A model generated the notes under the pieces. The model was not told the DNA's origin and searched no databases. It worked only from the letters and a program-made list of their open reading frames with translations. Shown piece after piece: positions 12,711 to 36,872 of a stretch of 64,000 nt of DNA. This stretch comes from a virus, in UHGV virus genome UHGV-1351569. One strand, written 5' to 3'. Every line of letters begins with the position of its first letter. Position 1 is the stretch's first letter. The position numbers and the translations under genes are program-made.

Positions 12711-13066
12711 ATGTCTAACATTCATATAACTGGAATTACCCAAGTAAAAATTCGTTGCCAACTTAAAACCGCGCCTGGGACGACTTTTATTAATTTATCA
12801 CACGACATAGATTCCCGTGAAAGCCAGTTAATGGGTGTAATTACATTTTACGCTGGATTTGGCGGAAACGAATTTACTGTAGGCGAAATTGTCGGCCGTA
12901 AATTAAAAGTTCAGAAGAACGTATTAGAACTTTTTAATGACCTTTACGACGATAGTGACGAAGTTTTTGATGAAATCGCACAAGCAGTTAACAGAGGAAT
13001 GGTAACTTTAGTTAAAATGATTGACGCTAGCGGATATGCTCATGACCCTTTTCAATGGGAGATAAT

Positions 13067-13070
<4 letters not shown>
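12711..13070 (+). CDS. hypothetical protein
   Basis: 119 aa ORF, tightly packed in the early operon. Confidence 0.7.
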
Positions 13071-14095
<1,025 letters not shown>

Positions 14096-14096
<1 letters not shown>

Positions 14097-14956
14097 TGAA
14101 ACAATACCAATTTTTAATTAAAGATATCCTGGAAAATGGCTACGAAACCGATGACCGAACGGGCACAGGAACAATTGCTCTGTTCGGTACTAAATTGCGT
14201 TGGGATTTAACCAAAGGTTTTCCTGCAGTAACGACTAAGAAGCTCGCCTGGAATGCATGTATTGCTGAGCTTCTATGGTTTATTTCCGGTTCTACCAATG
14301 TTAATGATTTACGTCTTCGCACTCATGGTAGTCTTATTCAAGGTAAAACTATTTGGGACGATAACTATGAAAACCAGGCTAAAGACCTAGGATATCATAG
14401 TGGTGAACTTGGTCCTATATACGGTAAACAATGGCGTGATTTCGGCGGTGTGGATCAATTAGTTGAAACTATTGATCGTATTAAAAAATTACCAACTGAT
14501 CGACGTCAAATCGTTTCAGCATGGAATCCAGTTGAAATCAATCAAATGGCATTACCGCCCTGTCATATGTTCTATCAGTTTAATGTGCGTAATGGTTATC
14601 TTGATTTACAATGGTACCAAAGAAGTGTAGATGTTTTCTTGGGCTTGCCATTCAACATTGCCTCGTACGCTGCCTTGACGCATATTGTGGCTAAGATGTG
14701 TAATCTTATCCCAGGAGATTTGATATTTTCTGGTGGTAATACTCACATCTATATGAATCATACGGCGCAATGTAAAGAAATTTTACGTCGTGAGCCTAAA
14801 GAACTGTGTGAACTTAAAATTGATTGGCCTATAGAGTTTGGAAATTGTGACACCGAAACACAGCTTTACTGGTTAACTGAATACATGAAACCGAAAGATT
14901 TTATCCTTGAAAATTATGAATCGCATCCAGCAATTAAAGGGAAAATGGCAATATGA
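14096..14956 (+). CDS. td: thymidylate synthase, uninterrupted (no intron)
   Basis: ATG 14096 gives 286 aa [38 protein letters not shown]...[11 protein letters not shown]...; contiguous reading frame. Confidence 0.95.
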
Positions 14957-15216
14957 TTTTACGATTTAAAGATACTTCTGGTATAGTTCTTTTTACACTT
15001 CCTAATCCAAGGGAGTTAGAAGTTCCAGGACCAGAACAGCCTATTATCATTTATGGTAAAAAATATTATACTCATAAAATGACTCGTGAGTATTTTGACA
15101 ATAAAATTTCCACAGTTAAAACTTCTTCCGATTGTTACTATGATATTACTGTATTAACGGAAAAACAATATGACGAATTATTCCAGCGTGGGCCGTCTAT
15201 GCCGGGTAGTGAATAA
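14953..15216 (+). CDS. hypothetical protein
   Basis: 87 aa ORF; ATG overlaps td stop. Confidence 0.6.
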
Positions 15217-15496
15217 ATACAAATCCGACTTTGATGTTAATATTCACCGCGGTACATTTTGGGGAAATTACGTCGGTAAAGATGCTGGCAGCCGGGAGGC
15301 TGCCATTGAATTATTCAAAAAAGATTTTATACGTCGAATTAAATCCGGAGAAATAACTAAAGCACATTTAGAGCCTTTACGTGGAATGAGGCTAGGATGC
15401 ACATGTAAACCAAAGCCGTGTCATGGTGATATAATAGCTCATATAGTTAACCGATTGTTTAAAGACGATTTTCAAGTTGAGGACTTATGCAATTAA
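15170..15496 (+). CDS. hypothetical protein with CxC...PxPCHGD motif
   Basis: 108 aa; contains [18 protein letters not shown]. Start uncertain (47 nt overlap with the upstream ORF). Confidence 0.55.
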
Positions 15497-17751
15497 TTAA
15501 TGTTATCAAAAGTAGTGGTGTTTCTCAGAGCTTTGACCCGCAAAAAATTATTAAAGTTTTATCTTGGGCAGCTGAAGGAACATCTGTAGATCCTTATGAA
15601 TTATATGAAAATATTAAATCATATCTCCGTGATGGAATGACCACTGATGACATTCAGACTATTGTCATTAAGGCTGCTGCGAATTCTATTTCAGTTGAAG
15701 AGCCTGATTATCAATATGTAGCTGCACGCTGTTTAATGTTTGCTCTTCGTAAGCATGTTTATGGGCAGTATGAACCACGTTCATTTATTGACCATATTTC
15801 TTACTGTGTAAATGAAGGTAAATATGACCCTGAATTATTGTCAAAATATTCAGCAGAAGAAATTACATTTTTAGAATCAAAAATTAAGCACGAACGGGAT
15901 ATGGAATTTACTTATTCCGGGGCGATGCAATTAAAAGAAAAATATCTAGTTAAAGATAAAACCACTGGTCAAATTTATGAAACTCCACAGTTTGCATTTA
16001 TGACTATTGGAATGGCACTGCATCAAGATGAACCTGTTGATAGATTAAAACATGTTATCCGTTTTTATGAAGCAGTATCTACTCGACAGATTTCATTGCC
16101 AACTCCTATTATGGCTGGTTGCCGTACTCCAACTCGACAGTTTAGTTCATGCGTTGTTATTGAAGCAGGTGATTCGCTGAAGTCTATCAATAAGGCTTCT
16201 GCTTCAATTGTTGAGTATATTTCTAAACGAGCTGGAATCGGCATTAACGTTGGTATGATTCGTGCCGAAGGTTCTAAGATTGGCACAGGTGAAGTACGCC
16301 ATACTGGTGTTATTCCTTTTTGGAAACATTTTCAGACTGCAGTTAAATCATGTTCACAGGGTGGAATTCGTGGCGGCGCTGCTACTGCTTATTATCCTAT
16401 TTGGCATTTGGAAGTTGAAAATCTTCTCGTTTTGAAAAATAACAAAGGCGTAGAAGAAAACCGTATTCGTCATATGGATTATGGTGTTCAGCTGAATGAT
16501 TTGATGATGGAACGATTCGGAAAGAACGATTACATTACTTTGTTCAGTCCGCATGAAATGGGTGGCGAGCTTTATTATTCTTATTTTAAAGACCAAGACC
16601 GTTTCCGTGAATTATACGAAGCAGCAGAAAAAGACCCTAATATTCGTAAAAAGCGTATTAAAGCTCGTGAACTATTTGAATTGCTCATGACTGAACGTTC
16701 AGGAACAGCAAGGATTTATGTGCAGTTCATTGATAATACGAATAACTATACTCCATTTATTCGTGAAAAGGCACCTATTCGTCAGAGTAACTTGTGCTGT
16801 GAAATTGCTATTCCAACAAATGATGTGAATAGTCCTGATGCTGAAATTGGATTGTGTACGTTATCTGCATTTGTGTTGGATAACTTCGATTGGCAAGACC
16901 AAGATAAAATTAATGAATTAGCAGAAGTTCAAGTTCGCGCTCTTGATAATCTTTTGGATTACCAAGGATATCCAGTTCCTGAAGCAGAAAAAGCTAAAAA
17001 GCGTCGAAATCTTGGTGTAGGTGTTACTAACTATGCAGCTTGGCTGGCAAGTAACTTTGCTTCTTATGAAGATGCTAACGATTTAACACATGAACTATTT
17101 GAGAGATTACAGTATGGACTCATCAAAGCATCCATTAAGCTCGCCAAAGAAAAAGGACCTTGCGAATATTATTCAGACACTCGTTGGTCTCGAGGCGAAT
17201 TACCTATCGACTGGTACAATAAAAAGATTGACCAAATCGCAGCTCCAAAATACGTTTGTGACTGGTCGTCGCTGCGGGAAGACCTTAAGCTCTTTGGCAT
17301 CCGTAATAGCACATTATCAGCACTTATGCCATGTGAGTCATCTTCCCAAGTTTCTAACAGTACAAACGGTATCGAGCCTCCACGTGGACCAGTCTCTGTT
17401 AAAGAATCAAAAGAGGGTTCCTTTAATCAAGTCGTGCCCAATATTGAGCATAACATAGACCTCTATGATTATACGTGGAAATTAGCTAAGAAAGGTAATA
17501 AACCTTATCTTACGCAAGTAGCTATTATGCTTAAATGGGTATGTCAATCAGCTTCAGCGAATACATATTATGACCCGCAGATTTTTCCAAAAGGAAAGGT
17601 TCCAATGTCAATAATGATTGATGACCTTTTGTATTTTTGGTATTTTGGCGGAAAAAATTTCTATTATCATAATACCCGTGACGGTTCTGGTACTGATGAT
17701 TATGAAATAGAAACTCCAAAAGCTGAAGATTGCGCAGCGTGTAAATTGTAA
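15487..17751 (+). CDS. nrdA: ribonucleotide reductase large subunit
   Basis: 754 aa (T4 NrdA length); N-terminal ATP-cone region, active-site cysteines (NLCCEI...). Confidence 0.95.
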   Translation: MQLINVIKSSGVSQSFDPQKIIKVLSWAAEGTSVDPYELYENIKSYLRDGMTTDDIQTIVIKAAANSISVEEPDYQYVAARCLMFALRKHVYGQYEPRSFIDHISYCVNEGKYDPELLSKYSAEEITFLESKIKHERDMEFTYSGAMQLKEKYLVKDKTTGQIYETPQFAFMTIGMALHQDEPVDRLKHVIRFYEAVSTRQISLPTPIMAGCRTPTRQFSSCVVIEAGDSLKSINKASASIVEYISKRAGIGINVGMIRAEGSKIGTGEVRHTGVIPFWKHFQTAVKSCSQGGIRGGAATAYYPIWHLEVENLLVLKNNKGVEENRIRHMDYGVQLNDLMMERFGKNDYITLFSPHEMGGELYYSYFKDQDRFRELYEAAEKDPNIRKKRIKARELFELLMTERSGTARIYVQFIDNTNNYTPFIREKAPIRQSNLCCEIAIPTNDVNSPDAEIGLCTLSAFVLDNFDWQDQDKINELAEVQVRALDNLLDYQGYPVPEAEKAKKRRNLGVGVTNYAAWLASNFASYEDANDLTHELFERLQYGLIKASIKLAKEKGPCEYYSDTRWSRGELPIDWYNKKIDQIAAPKYVCDWSSLREDLKLFGIRNSTLSALMPCESSSQVSNSTNGIEPPRGPVSVKESKEGSFNQVVPNIEHNIDLYDYTWKLAKKGNKPYLTQVAIMLKWVCQSASANTYYDPQIFPKGKVPMSIMIDDLLYFWYFGGKNFYYHNTRDGSGTDDYEIETPKAEDCAACKL

Positions 17752-18392
17752 TGAATTATCAAAAAATTTATAACGACCTAATTTCCCGAGCTCAGGCTCG
17801 GGAACCTTTATCCGAATATAAAGAGACTCATCATATAATCCCTAGATGTATGGGAGGTTCTGATGATAAAGAAAATTTAGTTGAATTAACAGGTAGAGAG
17901 CATTTTATAGCTCATTGGCTTTTATGCAAAATATATGACACCCCAGGATTAAAGAAAGCTTTTGGTTTAATGTGCTTGACTGGTAAAAATCGCTCATATA
18001 AAATTTCTTCTCAACTATACGAATTAGGTAGACGACGTTTATCTGAAGCTGCTATAGGACGTGAAGTTTCTATAGAAACCAGGGAAAAGATAAGTAGAGC
18101 TCTTAAAGGAAGGAAATTTACCAAAGAGCATTTAGCTCGCATGAGAAAACCTAAAACCGAAGAAGCTAAAAAGAATATAGCTGCTGCTAAAGTCGGCGTG
18201 CTTAATCCGATGTATGGTACAATCTCTCCGACAAGAGATGTTCCTCATACTAAAGAAACTCGTGATTTGATTTCTTTGAGAACTAAGCAAAGTATAGAGT
18301 ATCCGCCTTGTCCGCATTGTGGCAAGAAAGTTAATAAAGGCAATGCTCTAAGATGGCATTATGATAAATGTAAATTTAAGGATTCTAAATGA
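17751..18392 (+). CDS. mobE: HNH homing endonuclease, MobE-like
   Basis: 213 aa; ETHHIIPRCMGGSDDKENLVELTGREHFIAH (HNH motif) plus repeated basic NUMOD-like motifs; sits between nrdA and nrdB as T4 mobE does. Confidence 0.8.
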   Translation: MNYQKIYNDLISRAQAREPLSEYKETHHIIPRCMGGSDDKENLVELTGREHFIAHWLLCKIYDTPGLKKAFGLMCLTGKNRSYKISSQLYELGRRRLSEAAIGREVSIETREKISRALKGRKFTKEHLARMRKPKTEEAKKNIAAAKVGVLNPMYGTISPTRDVPHTKETRDLISLRTKQSIEYPPCPHCGKKVNKGNALRWHYDKCKFKDSK

Positions 18393-19567
18393 GTACAGTT
18401 TTTAATACATCCCCTGTTAATATTTTGACTGAGCCGATGTTTTTTGGTTCTGGATTGGGTTTAGCTCGATATGATATTCAACGGCATAGAGTATTTGAAG
18501 AACTTATTGAGAAATCTTTATCATTTTTCTGGCGTCCTGAAGAAGTAAACTTGATGATGGATGCTGCACAATTTAACAAGCTTCCTCAGTATCAGCAAGA
18601 TATTTTTACTAATAACCTGAAGTATCAATCACTTCTAGATAGCATTCAGGGTCGTGCACCGTCTGCTGTACTTATGTCATTAATTTCAGATCCAAGCCTT
18701 GATACGTGGGTTGCTACATGGACTTTTAGTGAAACTATTCACAGTCGTTCATACACTCATATCATGCGTAACCTCTATACAGACCCATCTAAGGTATTTG
18801 ATGAAATTCTGTTAGATGATGCAATTATGAAACGCGCCGAATCCATTGGTCGTTATTACGACGATGTTATTGAGAAAACACGTGAATGGGAAAATGCTAA
18901 AGAAATTTTTAAATGTTTTTCCGAAAATGAATATGATTTGGATGCATATTCAAATAGTCTTATGCATGTGGAAGAATGTAAACGTGCATTAATGAAATCT
19001 CTTTACCTCTGTTTGCATGTAATCAACGCATTGGAAGCTATTCGTTTTTATGTATCTTTCGCATGTACCTTTAACTTCCATAAGAACATGGAAATCATGG
19101 AAGGTAATGCCAAGATTATGAAGTTCATTGCACGTGATGAGCAGCTTCACCTTAAAGGTACCCAATATATTATTCGTCAGCTTCAATCCGGTACTGATGG
19201 TGATGAATGGGTTAAAATCGCCCAAGAGTGTGAACAAGAAGCAGTTGATATTTTCATGGAAGTTAACCGCCAAGAAAAAGATTGGGCAGTTCATTTATTT
19301 AAAGATGGTGATGTTCCTGGATTAAATACAAATAGCATGTGGAGCTTTATTGATTACTTAACCGTATCTCGTATGAAACAGTGCGGTCTTCCATGCCCAA
19401 TTACCGATGCTCCGGTTAAACATCCGTATCCTTGGATTCGTGAATATCTTAATTCTGATAATGTTCAATCCGCACCACAAGAAGTAGAACTGTCATCTTA
19501 CCTTGTAGCACAGATTGATAATGATGTTGATGATAAAGTTATGATGAGTTTTAAAAAATATTTTTAA
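18389..19567 (+). CDS. nrdB: ribonucleotide reductase small subunit, uninterrupted
   Basis: 392 aa contiguous ORF; di-iron ligand region (...ETIHSRSYTH...), C-terminal acidic tail. Confidence 0.95.
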   Translation: MSTVFNTSPVNILTEPMFFGSGLGLARYDIQRHRVFEELIEKSLSFFWRPEEVNLMMDAAQFNKLPQYQQDIFTNNLKYQSLLDSIQGRAPSAVLMSLISDPSLDTWVATWTFSETIHSRSYTHIMRNLYTDPSKVFDEILLDDAIMKRAESIGRYYDDVIEKTREWENAKEIFKCFSENEYDLDAYSNSLMHVEECKRALMKSLYLCLHVINALEAIRFYVSFACTFNFHKNMEIMEGNAKIMKFIARDEQLHLKGTQYIIRQLQSGTDGDEWVKIAQECEQEAVDIFMEVNRQEKDWAVHLFKDGDVPGLNTNSMWSFIDYLTVSRMKQCGLPCPITDAPVKHPYPWIREYLNSDNVQSAPQEVELSSYLVAQIDNDVDDKVMMSFKKYF

Positions 19568-29249: not shown

Positions 29250-29452
29250 ATATAATTAATAAGATTTTTGGAATTCAGTACATTAAGGTCACATATAGAG
29301 TAACGTATAAAGGTCCGTATACCGATGAACATGAAGAGCCACAAGTTCAGTCTATTATATTAGAAAAGGACCCTAACTGGCCAGTTGAATTTCGTCTTCC
29401 TTGCTACGGTCATTGGGCTGATGTTGAAATTATAAGCATTGAAAATGTCTGA
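29246..29452 (+). CDS. hypothetical protein
   Basis: 68 aa ORF. Confidence 0.6.
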   Translation: MNIINKIFGIQYIKVTYRVTYKGPYTDEHEEPQVQSIILEKDPNWPVEFRLPCYGHWADVEIISIENV

Positions 29453-29903
29453 GTTAGAGATAAGAAGCAATTTTAGATGGCCATCATGCGCATTAAGTAA
29501 TTTCGCCCAATGGCCTTTCGTTATGGATGGTATTCAATTTGGAGGTCTCGAAGGATTCCTCCAAGGATGCAAGGTGAAAAATGTTGAACAACAGCGTCGT
29601 ATATTTGGGTTATCCGGGCTTGCCGCCCAACAAGCTGGACGAGCTTATGCTAGAGCTCAGGACCGTGGGACCCTCTTCTGGCTTGGAGTTCCGTTTTCAA
29701 GATACTCTCCAGCGTGGAAAGAATTATACACAAATGCATATTTTGAAGCAGCGTTCCAAAACAAGGGCTTTCGCGATGCATTACAAGCCTCGAAAGGAAA
29801 AGTTTTGAAGCACAGCATGGCTAGTGGTCTAACAAAAGATGATACAATACTAACCGAAGCTGAATTTATTGATGTGTTAAACCTATTAAGAGACTCTCTA
29901 TGA
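29439..29903 (+). CDS. 30.3: NADAR (YbiA)-like domain protein
   Basis: 154 aa; LSNFAQWPFVMDGIQFGGLEGFLQGCK resembles the NADAR signature (FSNF..WP...DG.....E.F.Q..K). Confidence 0.7.
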   Translation: MKMSELEIRSNFRWPSCALSNFAQWPFVMDGIQFGGLEGFLQGCKVKNVEQQRRIFGLSGLAAQQAGRAYARAQDRGTLFWLGVPFSRYSPAWKELYTNAYFEAAFQNKGFRDALQASKGKVLKHSMASGLTKDDTILTEAEFIDVLNLLRDSL

Positions 29904-32690: not shown

Positions 32691-32717
32691 AATAGAATAA
32701 ACACTAGAGAGGATATG

Positions 32718-34811
32718 ATGGAACTCATTACAGAATTATTTGACGAAGATACTACTCTTCCGATTACAAACTTAAATCCAAAGAAGAAAATACCACAAAT
32801 TTTTTCAGTTCATGTTGATGACGCAATTGAACAACCAGGCTTTCGTTTATGTACCTATACATCTGGAGGTGATACTAATCGCGATTTAAAAATGGGCGAT
32901 AAAATGATGCATATTGTTCCTTTTACATTAACTGCTAAAGGTTCAATTGCTAAATTAAAAGGTCTCGGTCCAAGCCCAATTAATTACATCAATTCAGTTT
33001 TTACTGTTGCGATGCAAACAATGCGTCAGTATAAAATTGATGCTTGTATGCTTCGTATTCTTAAGTCTAAAACCGCTGGTCAAGCTCGACAAATTCAAGT
33101 TATTGCTGATAGACTTATCCGTAGTCGTTCAGGTGGCAGATACGTCCTTCTTAAAGAACTCTGGGATTACGATAAAAAGTATGCATATATTCTTATACAT
33201 CGCAAAAATGTATCACTAGAAGACATTCCAGGAGTTCCGGAAATTAGTACCGAGCTCTTTACTAAAGTTGAATCGAAAGTCGGCGATGTTTATATCAATA
33301 AAGATACTGGAGCTCAAGTAACTAAAAATGAGGCAATTGCAGCATCTATTGCACAAGAAAATGATAAACGTTCTGACCAAGCTGTTATTGTTAAAGTTAA
33401 AATTTCCCGTAGAGCAATTGCGCAAAGTCAATCATTAGAATCTTCTAGATTTGAAAGCGAATTATTCCAGAAGTATGAATCTACTGCAGCTAATTTCAAT
33501 AAACCTGCTACAGCTCCTTTAATTCCCGAAGCAGAAGAAATGAAGCTTGGAATTAATTCATTAGCTTCTAAAACTAAGGCAGCAAAAATTATTGCCGAAG
33601 GAACCGCAGATGAACTTCACTATGACTATAAATTCTTTTCAAAAAGTGAGGTTAATGAAGTTTCTGAAAAAATTAAAGATGTAATTCTTAATGCGATTAA
33701 AAATGAACCAACTACTTCAATAAAATGTTTAGAGAAATACGCAGCAGCTGTTAATCAATTATTTGAAGAATATAAAGATAATTGGCTTGATAAACATAAT
33801 AAAACCCGTAAAGGACAGCCAGATGAAGTCTGGGAAGAAATGACTAAAAATTCCTGGAACGCAGCAAAAACTAAATTCCTCAAAAGAATGATTTACAGCT
33901 TTTCTGGAATTGGTGCAGGTCCAATGATTGATATTACTATTGCTCGTGATGGTTCTAAATATACTCCATCACAAAAGCGCGGCATTAGAGAGTATTGTGG
34001 TTCAGGATATACTGACATCAATAATCTTCTTTTGGGTCGTTACAATCCAGAACGATATGATGTAATGAGTGAAAAAGAAATTGAATCTGCTATAAATAAC
34101 TTAGATTCAGCTTTTGAAAATGGTGACCGTATACCAGAAGGCATTACAGTTTATCGTGCTCAAAGTATGACTGCTCCTATATACGAAGCACTAGTTAAAA
34201 ATAAAGTGTTCTATTTCAGAAATTTTGTATCTACTTCTTTAACTCCTATCATTTTTGGACGTTTTGGAATTACACATGCTGGTATTGGTCTTTTAGAACC
34301 AGAAGCTCGTAATGAATTAACAGTTGATAAAAATGAAGAAGGAATAACTATTAATCCAAACGAAATAAGAGCGTATAAAGAAAATCCTGAATACGTTAAA
34401 GTTCAAATAGGATGGGCAATTGATGGAGCTCATAAAGTTAATGTTGTATATCCAGGAAGTCTCGGAATAGCAACAGAAGCTGAAGTTATTCTACCACGCG
34501 GATTGATGGTCAAAGTTAATAAAATAACTGATGCTTCTAATAATGATGGAACAACATCTAATAATACAAAACTCATTCAAGCTGAAGTTATGACTACGGA
34601 AGAACTCACCGAATCAGTAATTTATGACGGTGACCGTCTAATGGAAACTGGTGAAGTAGTTGCAATGACAGGTGATATTGAAATAGAAGACAGAGTTGAC
34701 TTTGCATCATTTGTTTCATCAAATGTTAAACAAAAAGTAGAATCATCTCTTGGAATTATTGCATCTTGCATAGATATTACAAACATGCCTTACAAGTTCG
34801 TTCAAGGATAA
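32718..34811 (+). CDS. alt: Alt-like ADP-ribosyltransferase (capsid-packaged)
   Basis: ATG 32718 gives 697 aa MELITELFDEDTTLPITNL...; C-terminal motifs ...VYRAQ, FVSTSLTP, TEAEVILPRG (R / S-T-S / E-x-E). Confidence 0.9.
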   Translation: MELITELFDEDTTLPITNLNPKKKIPQIFSVHVDDAIEQPGFRLCTYTSGGDTNRDLKMGDKMMHIVPFTLTAKGSIAKLKGLGPSPINYINSVFTVAMQTMRQYKIDACMLRILKSKTAGQARQIQVIADRLIRSRSGGRYVLLKELWDYDKKYAYILIHRKNVSLEDIPGVPEISTELFTKVESKVGDVYINKDTGAQVTKNEAIAASIAQENDKRSDQAVIVKVKISRRAIAQSQSLESSRFESELFQKYESTAANFNKPATAPLIPEAEEMKLGINSLASKTKAAKIIAEGTADELHYDYKFFSKSEVNEVSEKIKDVILNAIKNEPTTSIKCLEKYAAAVNQLFEEYKDNWLDKHNKTRKGQPDEVWEEMTKNSWNAAKTKFLKRMIYSFSGIGAGPMIDITIARDGSKYTPSQKRGIREYCGSGYTDINNLLLGRYNPERYDVMSEKEIESAINNLDSAFENGDRIPEGITVYRAQSMTAPIYEALVKNKVFYFRNFVSTSLTPIIFGRFGITHAGIGLLEPEARNELTVDKNEEGITINPNEIRAYKENPEYVKVQIGWAIDGAHKVNVVYPGSLGIATEAEVILPRGLMVKVNKITDASNNDGTTSNNTKLIQAEVMTTEELTESVIYDGDRLMETGEVVAMTGDIEIEDRVDFASFVSSNVKQKVESSLGIIASCIDITNMPYKFVQG

Positions 34812-34814
34812 ATC

Positions 34815-36872
34815 ATGGAACTTATTACAGAATTATTTGACGGCGCTTCGGCGCCGGTTGTTAACTTAAATCCTAAGCATAAAATACCTCAAATTTTTGC
34901 TATTCAAGCCGGCGAAGAAAGTGTGCTTCCTGGATTTAGATTTTGTACATACACCTCTGGCGGTGATACAAATAAAAACGTTAAGCCAGGCGATAAAATG
35001 ATGCATATCGTAATGATAGGTGTCAATGAGAAACTGTCATTAGTTAAACTTAAAAACTTGGGTGGAAATCCAATTGGTGTCATTAATGCGGTTTTTGATA
35101 CTGCTCTTCAAACAATGAAACAGTATAAAATTGACGCATGCCTATTACGCGTACTAAAAAGTAAAACAAATGGCGCAGCTCGTCAAATGCAAGTTATTGC
35201 TGATCGTTTAGTACGTACTAAAGGAGCAGGTCGATATGTTCTTTTAAAGGAAATCTGGGATTACGATAAAAAGTATGCATATATTATGGTTTACCGTAAA
35301 AATGCCAATTTAGAAGACATTCCAGGTGTACCTCCTATTTCAACTGAGTTATTCACAAAAGTTGAATCAAAGGTTGGTGATGTTTATGTAGATGTTAAAA
35401 CAGGTAATGCTGTTCCTAAAGCTGTTGCTGTTGCTGCTTCTATTGCTTTAGAAAATGATAAGCGCACGGATCAAGCTGTTATTCAGAAAACTAAAATTAG
35501 TCGTCGATTAGCAGCACAAGCTCAATATTCTACTGTCGATGCTTCACTTCAGGGCGATAGCTTCGCTGCCAAGAAATATCAAGAGTTTGAATCTAAAGTT
35601 CCGGTATATAAAGCAGAAGGACCAATGAACTCTGGTGTTATTCAGATTGGTTCAAACTTCGGCAAAGGAGCTATCGGTGGTATGAGAAGTGCTTCTCGTT
35701 TTAAATCTAACGATTATGAACTAGAAAGCTTCCGAAATCATATTGCATTGGCCCATGCACGTTTACGTGATCCATCTATCAAGCTGCAGAGCGATATAAC
35801 ATATCAAGGTTCTCAAGAATATTTAAAGAATAAAGAATTCTTTGATTATAAAACCGATAAAATTTTAAGCGATCTCGCTGACATTAATATTTCTAATAGC
35901 TTTGATGTTATTAAGAAAATTATCAATGATTTAGTTAAAGGTTCTAAAGCCACGCCAGACGAAAAAGTAGCTATTATTCAATTTGTCATGAATAGCATTT
36001 ATAAATTGATTAATGAATCTGCTGCTCAGGCATATGAATACGCAAGCACCGAAGTAACTCCAAAAGGACTGACTCAGGCTGAGTCTGATGTAATTGAAGA
36101 TTATTGTGCAGATTCATATGTTGAAATGAACTCGTTCCTCCTGGGTAAACCAGATTCTACCCGTGAAGAATACATGGAACGAGCTATTAAACACATTGAG
36201 ACAATGGATTCTGCCTTTGCCAAAGGTTCAGTTCTTCCTCCAGGAACTACGCTTTATCGTGGACAAGAAGTTACCTTTAAAACTTTACGCCATAATATTG
36301 AAAATAAAATGTTCTATTTCAAGAACTTCGTATCAACATCGCTTAAACCAAATATCTTCGGTGAGCATGGTAAAAACTATATGGCTCTAGATGATTCCGG
36401 TGCAGTATTTTCTGGTGAAGGAGAAGGTTCTGTTGATGCTGAAGATTTAATGCATATGGGTAGTCATTCTGCATATGCTAATGAAGATGCTGAAACTAGC
36501 GTGGGTATGGTAATAAAAGGAGCTGAGCGAATTAAAGTTATCGTTCCAGGTCATTTATCAGAATTTCCATCAGAAGCTGAAGTTATTCTACCACGTGGAA
36601 TTTTGTTGAAGATTAATAAAGTAAGCACGTACATGATGAAAGAAACTGCTTATAACAAGTATTTAATCGAAGGCACAATCGTTCCTCCTTCTGAACAATT
36701 AGAAGAATCGGTATATGATGGCGATCATCTGATGGAAACTGGTGAAGTTCGTCCAATGGCTGGATTTAATCAATTCCTTGTAGAAGAATCAAAAGAAGAG
36801 GAAAACGAAGTTTCTCAAATCTTGGCTTCTTTGGTTAACATCAACGGAATGTCTAAAAAGTTCAAAATGTAG
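34815..36872 (+). CDS. second Alt-like ADP-ribosyltransferase paralog, intact
   Basis: 685 aa MELITELFDGASAPVVNL...; N-terminal ~230 aa and C-terminal motifs (TLYRGQ, FVSTSLKP, SEAEVILPRG) shared with upstream alt; central region divergent. Confidence 0.85.
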   Translation: MELITELFDGASAPVVNLNPKHKIPQIFAIQAGEESVLPGFRFCTYTSGGDTNKNVKPGDKMMHIVMIGVNEKLSLVKLKNLGGNPIGVINAVFDTALQTMKQYKIDACLLRVLKSKTNGAARQMQVIADRLVRTKGAGRYVLLKEIWDYDKKYAYIMVYRKNANLEDIPGVPPISTELFTKVESKVGDVYVDVKTGNAVPKAVAVAASIALENDKRTDQAVIQKTKISRRLAAQAQYSTVDASLQGDSFAAKKYQEFESKVPVYKAEGPMNSGVIQIGSNFGKGAIGGMRSASRFKSNDYELESFRNHIALAHARLRDPSIKLQSDITYQGSQEYLKNKEFFDYKTDKILSDLADINISNSFDVIKKIINDLVKGSKATPDEKVAIIQFVMNSIYKLINESAAQAYEYASTEVTPKGLTQAESDVIEDYCADSYVEMNSFLLGKPDSTREEYMERAIKHIETMDSAFAKGSVLPPGTTLYRGQEVTFKTLRHNIENKMFYFKNFVSTSLKPNIFGEHGKNYMALDDSGAVFSGEGEGSVDAEDLMHMGSHSAYANEDAETSVGMVIKGAERIKVIVPGHLSEFPSEAEVILPRGILLKINKVSTYMMKETAYNKYLIEGTIVPPSEQLEESVYDGDHLMETGEVRPMAGFNQFLVEESKEEENEVSQILASLVNINGMSKKFKM

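What the first reader, a model, noticed from the sequence alone, without database searches (positions are those of the whole stretch)
15170..15496. Small protein with a CxC...PxPCHGD motif upstream of nrdA
The 108 aa ORF contains [18 protein letters not shown], a compact Cys/His cluster suggestive of metal binding. From memory, a similar signature marks a small domain family that co-occurs with ADP-ribose-processing domains in bacteria and phages. This window also encodes two Alt ADP-ribosyltransferases and a NADAR-like protein. The start is uncertain because of the 47 nt overlap with the preceding ORF.
Basis: inference. Interest (0 to 1): 0.45.

Follow-up and report, generated by a model that had tools for sequence, protein, structure and literature searches.

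The report
T4 nrdA.1, a DUF4326 protein
The small ORF is real and is phage T4's gene nrdA.1, a member of the described but biochemically untested DUF4326 family, which is often fused to ADP-ribose/nucleotide-processing domains; it is already catalogued, so this is not a new discovery.

Summary
Window 15170-15496 (+) encodes a 108-aa protein carrying [12 protein letters not shown]. It overlaps the upstream ORF by 47 nt and nrdA by 10 nt. It is 100% identical to T4 NrdA.1 (NP_049846) and matches Pfam DUF4326 at E 5.5e-22.

Across 155 diverse family members, C77, C79, P81, C84, H85, G86 and D87 are almost invariant. C11 is conserved only among T4-like phages.

DUF4326 is fused to or adjacent to SLOG, NADAR, Macro and TIR domains. 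The window does encode two Alt ADP-ribosyltransferases and the NADAR enzyme gp30.3/AdfN.

The most likely function is a cysteine-loop enzyme acting on phosphate attached to ribose, in ADP-ribose or nucleotide derivatives or at nucleic-acid ends. This is inferred, not shown. Zinc binding is not excluded.

In bacteria, mSLOG-DUF4326 sits in a DuOB-DUF488 operon that matches the PADLOC defence candidate PDC-M45. The family assignment is already known, and interest is modest.

The parts
15170..15496 (+). nrdA.1 coding sequence (108 aa plus stop), the DUF4326 protein
   Evidence: ORF list and sequence. 100% identical to T4 NP_049846.1. Protein detected in the T4 infection proteome: RNA class early, protein class late (PMC9697503 supplement).
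15200..15439 (+). DUF4326 domain (residues 11-90)
   Evidence: Pfam PF14216 at E 5.5e-22, 78.7 bits, profile positions 1-81 of 82. AF2 model has pLDDT 86.2, with strands 12-15 and 74-77 and helices 36-39, 42-59, 64-70 and 85-96.
15395..15430 (+). Signature loop G76-C77-T-C79-K-P81-K-P-C84-H85-G86-D87, the predicted active-site or ligand loop
   Evidence: C77 155/155, C79 153/155, P81 153/155, C84 155/155, H85 154/155, G86 146/155 and D87 142/155 across diverse representatives. The loop lies between strand 74-77 and helix 85-96. The degenerate DNA pattern for this motif retrieved 117 true DUF4326 genes among 120 genome hits.
14953..15216 (+). Upstream gene (T4 nrdA.2 equivalent, DUF5496), overlapping nrdA.1 by 47 nt in another frame
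   Evidence: Pfam PF17600 at E 2.2e-61. The same overlap is annotated in T4.
15487..17751 (+). nrdA (ribonucleotide reductase large subunit), whose start overlaps the nrdA.1 stop region by 10 nt
   Evidence: ORF list and T4 annotation.
15286..15305 (+). Hairpin GGCAGCC-GGGA-GGCUGCC inside the ORF, annotated as a stem-loop of the nrdA upstream region in the 1988 T4 record
   Evidence: GenBank J03968.1 features mapped to the window. Fold of 15240-15312: -25 kcal/mol, z = -2.49.
15306..15333 (+). -35 (TTGAAT, 15306-15311) and -10 (TATACG, 15328-15333) of the annotated nrdA promoter, inside the nrdA.1 ORF
   Evidence: J03968.1 annotation and identical sequence in the window. My own consensus scan showed no enrichment of promoter-like sites, so this rests on the depositors' annotation.
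15479..15482 (+). nrdA ribosome-binding site (GAGG) within the last codons of nrdA.1
   Evidence: J03968.1 annotation and the sequence.

Best explanation
The ORF is the T4-type early gene nrdA.1, a stand-alone DUF4326 domain protein.

Shown:
- It is a real, expressed and conserved gene.
- It belongs to DUF4326.
- The family's invariant residues (N15, D22, R27, G32-N33, then L75-G76-C77-x-C79-x-P81-x-x-C84-H85-G86-D87) include a cysteine-rich loop that joins the end of a beta-strand to the start of a helix.
- The family is repeatedly fused to or adjacent to SLOG, NADAR, Macro, TIR and DUF488 domains.

Inferred:
- The loop is an anion (phosphate)-binding catalytic loop of the kind found in the rhodanese/cysteine-phosphatase superfamily and in the RapZ C-terminal pocket.
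- C77 at the strand end is the likely nucleophile. C79/C84/H85/D87, together with R27/N33, would shape the pocket.
- The enzyme removes or transfers a phosphate attached to ribose. The substrate would be an ADP-ribose- or nucleotide-derived small molecule (for example a phosphoribose product of a SLOG or NADAR glycosidase) or a nucleic-acid end.
- In T4 it works as a solo enzyme made early from read-through transcripts of the frd-td-nrd block. It most plausibly cleans up or neutralises such products during infection, as housekeeping for the phage's own ADP-ribosylation and RNA-repair chemistry or as counter-defence.

The family assignment is essentially certain. The confidence given below is for the mechanism.
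For: Identity:
- Pfam E 5.5e-22.
- 108/108 identity to T4 NrdA.1.
- Protein detected in T4 infection.

Conservation of the loop across 155 diverse representatives and 109 cellular ORFs.

Topology is strand 74-77, loop, helix 85-96.

Fold:
- RapZ's equivalent segment, IGC247-TGGK-H252-R253-S, forms a sulphate/RNA-phosphate pocket, and C247S abolishes function (PMC9841335).
- A relaxed hhalign places LGC77...C84H85GD on IGC247...H252RS and WGN33P on PN-P-H190.

DUF488:
- hhalign gives score 23.3 and P 0.0026, aligning C77=C, P81=P and C84-H85=C-H.
- A DUF488 HMM ranks NrdA.1 first among all ORFs of the window plus T4 1-50 kb (E 0.073).

Context:
- Fusions to SLOG, NADAR, Macro and TIR.
- DUF488 sits immediately upstream in 26 of 30 mSLOG-DUF4326 loci.
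- Viral homologues occur in phages, haloviruses and giant viruses, including a 'NADAR domain with protein tyrosine phosphatase' protein.

Literature:
- From memory, not retrievable here: Burroughs & Aravind 2023, NAR Genom Bioinform lqad029, define a RapZ-C-DUF488-DUF4326 clade.
Against: - No biochemical or genetic data exist for any DUF4326 protein in the papers I could search.
- hhalign against RapZ-C is not significant (E 0.41). Against DUF488 the probability is only 11.6%.
- The canonical C-X5-R phosphatase signature is absent. Gly86 sits where RapZ and DUF488 have Arg.
- Three invariant Cys plus a His within nine residues would equally suit a zinc site.
- T4 has no SLOG or DUF488 partner in the 114 kb examined, so the substrate source in T4 is unknown.
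- NrdA.1 matches no PADLOC model.
Confidence: 0.45

Rival explanations
1. Zinc-binding module. C77, C79, C84 and H85 chelate a structural or catalytic metal. The protein then acts as a small metal-dependent enzyme or as a binding or regulatory factor, not as a thiol-based phosphoesterase.
For: Three Cys and one His are near-invariant within nine residues. A CxC knuckle followed by ligands at a helix N-terminus is a common zinc-site geometry (general knowledge).
Against: - The sister families keep the fold-defining positions but not all ligands. DUF488 lacks the C79 equivalent. RapZ-C keeps only C247 and H252 and binds sulphate or phosphate there, with no metal mentioned in the passages read from the structure paper.
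- Adjacent C84-H85 rarely ligate the same ion (general knowledge).
- C11 is not conserved family-wide.
Confidence: 0.2
2. Non-catalytic ligand or RNA sensor resembling RapZ-C. The loop binds a phosphosugar, a nucleotide or a nucleic-acid backbone phosphate, and the protein regulates a partner instead of turning over a substrate.
For: The closest solved fold is RapZ-C. Its pocket binds the RNA backbone and probably GlcN6P and has a regulatory role.
Against: The strict invariance of several potentially reactive residues (3 Cys, His, Asp, Arg, Asn) across very distant viruses and cells, and the fusions to enzymes of ADPr/nucleotide turnover, are more typical of an enzyme. Even for RapZ the authors suspect chemistry at C247.
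Confidence: 0.15
3. Redox or sulfur-transfer helper of nucleotide synthesis. A thiol/disulfide or persulfide (rhodanese-like) protein would serve the adjacent ribonucleotide reductase or the T4 dNTP-synthesising complex.
For: - The gene is overlapped by nrdA in T4-like phages.
- It stays within the td/nrd block in other Straboviridae: after nrdB in Slopekvirus and after td in L002.
- Its protein expression class is the same as NrdA and NrdB.
- The rhodanese branch of the proposed superfamily does thiol-transfer chemistry (general knowledge).
Against: - Outside Straboviridae the gene is not near RNR genes. Kuttervirus has it after SbcCD-like genes. L005 has it after a DNA polymerase. Bacterial copies lie in DuOB-DUF488 operons.
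- It has no thioredoxin or glutaredoxin fold or CxxC motif.
- T4 already encodes NrdC and NrdH.
Confidence: 0.1
4. Not a gene. The region is only the regulatory spacer of nrdA (promoters, hairpins), as annotated in 1988.
For: GenBank J03968.1 annotates promoters and stem-loops here and no CDS.
Against: The Pfam match is strong. Protein-level homologues exist in thousands of viruses and cells. The protein was detected in T4 proteomics.
Confidence: 0.01

Closest known systems
Pfam DUF4326 (PF14216); T4 NrdA.1 (NP_049846.1, UniProt P32279)
   Same: Identical protein (108/108). Full-length domain match with all family-invariant residues.
   Different: Nothing at the protein level. The host phage is a T4 relative, not T4 itself: td and nrdB lack introns and the mobE-like gene is longer.
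DUF488 (PF04343 / PF22751 'active DUF488-N3')
   Same: Collinear C...P..CH motif on a strand-loop-helix. Marginal profile similarity (P 0.0026). Encoded immediately upstream of mSLOG-DUF4326 in bacteria. Said to be the sister family in the literature (from memory).
   Different: DUF488 has CHRR where DUF4326 has CHGD, lacks the C79 equivalent, and is ~145 aa with a different N-terminal half. NrdA.1 does not reach the DUF488 Pfam threshold.
RapZ C-terminal domain (PF22740; PDB 5o5s, 5o5q)
Cysteine phosphatases / rhodaneses (PTP, DUSP, PTEN, Cdc25)
   Different: No C-X5-R motif, a much smaller sheet, and scores in the noise range. No activity has been shown.
T4 gp30.3/AdfN (NADAR) as a functional analogue
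   Same: A small solo early T4 enzyme from an ADPr-processing family that in bacteria is part of conflict systems. It lies in the same window.

Membership tests
Pfam DUF4326 (PF14216) | HMM score above the gathering threshold over the whole domain | tested here: met
   78.7 bits against a cutoff of 25, E 5.5e-22, profile positions 1-81 of 82.
Pfam DUF4326 (PF14216) | Family-invariant residues: VVN, D, R-G, W-G-N-P, and L-G-C-x-C-x-P-x-x-C-H-G-D | tested here: met
   All present in the window protein except Pro34, which is Tyr here. Frequencies across 155 representatives are.
Pfam DUF4326 (PF14216) | Predicted fold shared with other family members | tested here: met
   BFVD Foldseek gave 23 hits at E<1e-3, most of them named DUF4326 proteins, with TM-scores up to 0.87.
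Rhodanese-phosphatase superfamily (RapZ-C-DUF488-DUF4326 clade) | Structural similarity to a solved member | tested here: inconclusive
Rhodanese-phosphatase superfamily (RapZ-C-DUF488-DUF4326 clade) | Profile-profile sequence similarity to DUF488 and RapZ-C | tested here: inconclusive
   DUF488: score 23.3, P 0.0026, probability 11.6%. RapZ-C: E 0.41. The comparison alignments had low diversity.
Rhodanese-phosphatase superfamily (RapZ-C-DUF488-DUF4326 clade) | Conserved Cys at the C-terminal end of a core strand, followed by a loop leading into a helix | tested here: met
   AF2 model: strand 74-77 ends at C77, loop 78-84, helix 85-96. C77 is conserved in 155/155. This is a model, not an experimental structure.
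Rhodanese-phosphatase superfamily (RapZ-C-DUF488-DUF4326 clade) | C-X5-R (PTP) or C-X4-R (rhodanese) signature | tested here: not met
   The loop is [11 protein letters not shown]. No Arg follows, and G86 occupies the position of the RapZ R253 / DUF488 Arg.
Rhodanese-phosphatase superfamily (RapZ-C-DUF488-DUF4326 clade) | Phosphoesterase or thiotransfer activity through the Cys | not testable with these tools
   Needs biochemistry.
Zinc-binding Cys/His module | Four conserved ligands with suitable geometry, and bound metal | not testable with these tools
   Three Cys plus one His are invariant. C11 is not conserved.
NADAR (PF08719) | HMM match or clear structural match | tested here: not met
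Thioredoxin/glutaredoxin-type RNR reductants | Thioredoxin fold and CxxC motif | tested here: not met
PADLOC candidate defence system PDC-M45 | Match to a PDC-M45 component model | tested here: not met
   NrdA.1 and the bacterial mSLOG-DUF4326 proteins hit no PDC-M45 model. Only their operon partners do: DuOB matches PDC-M45A at 4.8e-56 and DUF488 matches PDC-M45C at 3.7e-68.

The most novel reading that the evidence does not exclude
NrdA.1 is an orphan counter-defence enzyme, acting like AdfN. Bacteria carry mSLOG-DUF4326 in DuOB-DUF488 operons that match a candidate defence system (PDC-M45). T4 carries only the DUF4326 module. T4 could use it to dephosphorylate, and so inactivate or reverse, a ribose-phosphate-bearing immune product. 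That product might be an ADPr-derived signal or a modified nucleic-acid end made by such SLOG/TIR/DUF488 systems.
Probability: 0.2. Interest if true: 0.65.

Novelty: already known. Interest (0 to 1): 0.3.

Why it matters
DUF4326 is widespread. About 10,000 cluster representatives match at E<=1e-3. About 3.5% of phage genome records carry a homologue. The family also occurs in haloarchaeal viruses and giant viruses. No member has a demonstrated activity.

T4 NrdA.1 is the most tractable member. It comes from a model phage, is a 108-aa single-domain protein, and is detectably expressed. Working out its substrate would give a function to the whole family. It could also reveal a missing step in phage handling of ADP-ribose- or nucleotide-derived metabolites, or a new counter-defence activity.

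The finding itself adds nothing beyond existing annotation and published predictions.

Tried and rejected
- Sequence search of the PDB found nothing, with the single protein or with a 96-sequence profile.
- Foldseek against the PDB found nothing significant. The afdb50 library was unavailable.
- hhalign of the DUF4326 profile against a single RapZ-C sequence and against a 95-sequence RapZ-C alignment was not significant. Only a relaxed alignment shows collinear motifs.
- The search for related loci with the diverse alignment failed because no stretch was conserved enough. I replaced it with a degenerate DNA pattern for the motif.
- I looked for a second DUF4326, an mSLOG or a DUF488 gene in the window and in T4 1-50 kb and found none. 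T4 50-92 kb and 156-169 kb were not examined.
- T4 gp49.2, annotated 'ribonucleotide reductase', is not a DUF4326.
- The PHROG name 'ribonucleotide reductase NrdA-like' (phrog_24867) looks like a mis-propagated name taken from the gene label. It is not evidence of an RNR function.
- A promoter/terminator consensus scan of 13000-16000 showed no enrichment.
- NCBIfam and PADLOC gave no hit for NrdA.1.
- The Burroughs & Aravind 2023 paper could not be retrieved. Its content is cited from memory only.
- Literature searches for nrdA.1, DUF4326 and DUF488 found no experimental characterisation.

Full report
**1. The observation**

The window is a T4-like (Tequatrovirus) genome segment. The local gene order is frd (13312-13893), td (about 14096-14956), an nrdA.2-like ORF (14953-15216, Pfam DUF5496), the target ORF (15170-15496), nrdA (15487-17751), an HNH/NUMOD3 endonuclease gene (17751-18392) and nrdB (18389-19567).

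The target ORF encodes 108 aa and contains [20 protein letters not shown].

The protein is 108/108 identical to T4 NrdA.1 (NP_049846.1, annotated 'hypothetical protein'), and T4 has the same overlap with nrdA.2. The surrounding DNA is about 98-99% identical to many T-even phages.

Two Alt-type ADP-ribosyltransferases lie at 32715-34811 and 34815-36872 (PF03496). gp30.3 at 29439-29903 (PF08010) is the published NADAR enzyme AdfN, a DNA ADP-ribosylglycohydrolase that counters DarTG1 (bioRxiv 10.1101/2024.07.11.602962).

**2. What it is**

The protein matches Pfam DUF4326 (PF14216) over the whole domain, at E 5.5e-22 and 78.7 bits against a cutoff of 25. It also matches PHROG 464, 'unknown function'.

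A profile search of 1.84 billion cluster representatives found 10,268 relatives at E<=1e-3 and 1,928 at E<=1e-10. By tblastn, 1,781 of 50,697 phage records carry a homologue. Those listed that carry annotation are named 'hypothetical' or 'DUF4326', apart from one weak hit labelled 'ribonucleotide reductase NrdA-like'.

The gene is expressed. In the T4 time-resolved omics data set, nrdA.1 (UniProt P32279) is classed as early RNA and late protein, the same class as nrdA and nrdB (PMC9697503 supplement).

The 1988 T4 nrdA record (J03968.1) did not call this ORF. It annotated the following inside it:
- a late promoter;
- two stem-loops;
- a -35/-10 pair for nrdA;
- the nrdA ribosome-binding site.

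Transcripts starting at that internal promoter cannot encode NrdA.1. The protein must therefore be made from read-through of the upstream frd-td transcripts. This last step is inference.

**3. Conservation and predicted structure**

In 25 T4-like homologues the invariant residues are C11, V13-V14-N15, D22, I25, R27-G28, G32-N33, I46, I62, L70, R74-L75-G76-C77, C79, P81, C84-H85-G86-D87 and V93.

In 155 diverse representatives the signature loop remains almost invariant: C77 155/155, C79 153, P81 153, C84 155, H85 154, G86 146 and D87 142. N15, D22, R27, G32, N33, L70, L75 and G76 are also conserved. C11 is mostly Thr or absent. Searches agree.

The degenerate DNA pattern for GC.C.P..CHGD is highly specific. 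Of 120 matches in bacterial and archaeal genomes, 117 are true DUF4326 genes.

AlphaFold2 gives a confident small alpha/beta model (pLDDT 86.2, pTM 0.78). Its elements are strand 12-15, helices 36-39, 42-59 and 64-70, strand 74-77 and helix 85-96. C77 therefore ends a strand, residues 78-84 form a loop, and H85 starts a helix.

**4. Relation to known folds**

No PDB chain is related by sequence, even with a 96-sequence profile. Foldseek against the PDB finds nothing.

In RapZ the segment IGC247-TGGK-H252-R253-S lies, together with H190 of the PNPH motif, at the sulphate/malonate pocket that contacts RNA backbone phosphates. C247S abolishes function (PMC9841335).

hhalign of DUF4326 against a RapZ-C alignment is not significant (E 0.41). 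The relaxed alignment is nevertheless collinear: yDVyIGRGSxWGNP pairs with vFDvRfLPNPH, and LGC...CHGDV pairs with IGCT..GGxHRSV.

Against a 19-sequence DUF488 alignment taken from neighbouring genes, hhalign gives score 23.3 and P 0.0026. It pairs C77 with C, P81 with P, and C84-H85 with C-H. A DUF488 HMM ranks NrdA.1 first among all ORFs of the window plus T4 1-50 kb (E 0.073).

These are weak, consistent signals, not proof. [quoted passage not shown] They also agree with my recollection that Burroughs & Aravind (2023, NAR Genom Bioinform lqad029) defined a RapZ-C-DUF488-DUF4326 clade. I could not retrieve that paper.

**5. Context across life**

Fusions:
- Among 53 representatives of at least 140 aa, partners are SLOG (YAcAr 6, mSLOG 6, YpsA 1, DprA-like 5), NADAR (3 plus 1), Macro (2) and TIR (1), and singly DNA polymerase A, RNase H and RNA polymerase.
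- In cellular genomes, Pfam finds 29 mSLOG-DUF4326 fusions of about 200 aa among 109 DUF4326 ORFs. A custom mSLOG HMM built from these N-terminal regions finds 30 such genes across the loci.

Neighbours:
- The commonest immediate neighbours are DUF488 (18-19) and YAcAr SLOG proteins (13).
- Of those 30 mSLOG-DUF4326 genes, 26 have DUF488 directly upstream. Where measured, this is on the same strand with a gap of -3 to +5 nt. 23 have a DuOB (dual OB, PF22557) gene in the locus, almost always just upstream of DUF488.
- DuOB and DUF488 match components A and C of the PADLOC defence candidate PDC-M45, at E 4.8e-56 and 3.7e-68. In L021 the operon lies beside an integrase gene and an AAA_23 ATPase gene.
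- NrdA.1 itself hits no PADLOC or NCBIfam model.

Viruses:
- BFVD fold matches are DUF4326 proteins of phages, haloarchaeal viruses, Pithovirus, Pandoravirus and Marseillevirus.

Gene position in phages:
- Within Straboviridae the gene stays in the early td/nrd/denA/rnlA block, but its position shifts.
  - It lies before nrdA in T4 types and in L003.
  - It lies after nrdB in Slopekvirus.
  - It lies between td and an unknown gene followed by rnlA in L002.
- Elsewhere it follows SbcCD-like genes (Kuttervirus) or a DNA polymerase (L005).
- Linkage to nrdA is therefore lineage-specific.

No second DUF4326, mSLOG or DUF488 gene was found in the window or in T4 1-50 kb.

**6. Most likely mechanism**

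Shown: NrdA.1 is a conserved, expressed single-domain protein. Its invariant residues include a strand-end Cys followed by a Cys/His loop and a helix. The family is embedded in SLOG, NADAR, Macro, TIR and DUF488 contexts.

Inferred: the loop is a phosphate-binding catalytic loop like those of cysteine phosphatases and the RapZ-C pocket, with C77 as the nucleophile. The enzyme would remove or transfer a phosphate attached to ribose, in ADP-ribose- or nucleotide-derived molecules or at nucleic-acid ends. This matches the published prediction.

In T4 the enzyme stands alone. It probably handles products of the phage's own ADP-ribosylation and RNA-repair chemistry or of host immune enzymes. I give this mechanism about 0.45.

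The rivals are:
- a zinc site formed by C77/C79/C84/H85 (0.2);
- a non-catalytic ligand or RNA sensor like RapZ-C (0.15);
- a redox or sulfur-transfer helper of ribonucleotide reductase (0.1);
- not a gene at all (about 0.01, refuted).

**7. Novelty and score**

The protein is T4 NrdA.1. The family is in Pfam, and its association with ADPr-processing domains and a predicted activity are published. The finding is therefore already known at the level of identification.

The metal-binding suggestion is untested and is not the favoured reading.

The open question, the biochemical function of DUF4326, is real, and T4 makes it directly testable. That justifies a modest interest score of 0.3.

The most novel reading still open is that NrdA.1 is an orphan counter-defence enzyme that mirrors a module of bacterial DuOB-DUF488-SLOG-DUF4326 systems (probability about 0.2).

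Noticed in passing
L021:2157-3876 (also L060, L043, L053 and about 20 other genome loci): Bacteria carry a conserved three-gene operon: DuOB (dual OB, PF22557), DUF488 and mSLOG-DUF4326. DuOB and DUF488 match components A and C of the PADLOC defence candidate PDC-M45. The mSLOG-DUF4326 gene has no PADLOC model. In L021 the operon lies next to an integrase gene and an AAA_23 ATPase gene.
   Followed up: partly
L024, L055, L057, L075, L077, L082 and others (MAG OZ241875.1 and related genomes): A second cassette pairs a 124-aa DUF4326 gene with a 319-aa protein that has a C-terminal YAcAr SLOG domain. The motif occurs at six places in one genome (OZ241875.1: L055, L057, L059, L075, L077, L082), and the cassette was confirmed at five of them, which suggests a mobile or amplified unit.
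   Followed up: no
window 15212-15333 and 15479-15482: The 1988 T4 record J03968.1 annotates, inside the nrdA.1 ORF, a late promoter, two stem-loops (the 15286-15305 hairpin is strong, fold z = -2.49), an nrdA -35/-10 pair and the nrdA RBS. In this window one base of the late-promoter TATAAAT is changed (TACAAAT).
   Followed up: partly
window 13890-14096: A 68-aa ORF lies between frd and td with no Pfam or NCBIfam match. In T4, frd and td abut, with no gene between them.
   Followed up: no
window 14096-14956, 17751-18392 and 18389-19567: td and nrdB are intron-less here, unlike in T4 (I-TevI and I-TevIII introns). The HNH/NUMOD3 endonuclease ORF between nrdA and nrdB is 213 aa, against 141 aa for T4 mobE.
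   Followed up: no
window 32715-34811 and 34815-36872: Two tandem Alt-like ADP-ribosyltransferase genes (698 and 685 aa), each with a C-terminal PF03496 domain (E 1.6e-37 and 2.9e-20).
   Followed up: no
PHROG 24867; T4 NC_000866 47506-47826 (gp49.2); Escherichia phage EK010 (H55): The label 'ribonucleotide reductase (NrdA-like)' is attached to small proteins. phrog_24867 hits NrdA.1 residues 37-100, so the name looks like a mis-propagated annotation derived from the gene label nrdA.1. T4 gp49.2, which carries the same kind of name, is not a DUF4326.
   Followed up: partly
L002:6001-8893: In a more distant T4-like contig the order is td, DUF4326, unknown, rnlA, unknown, then a weak Macro-domain protein. 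This puts DUF4326 close to RNA-repair and ADPr-processing genes.
   Followed up: no
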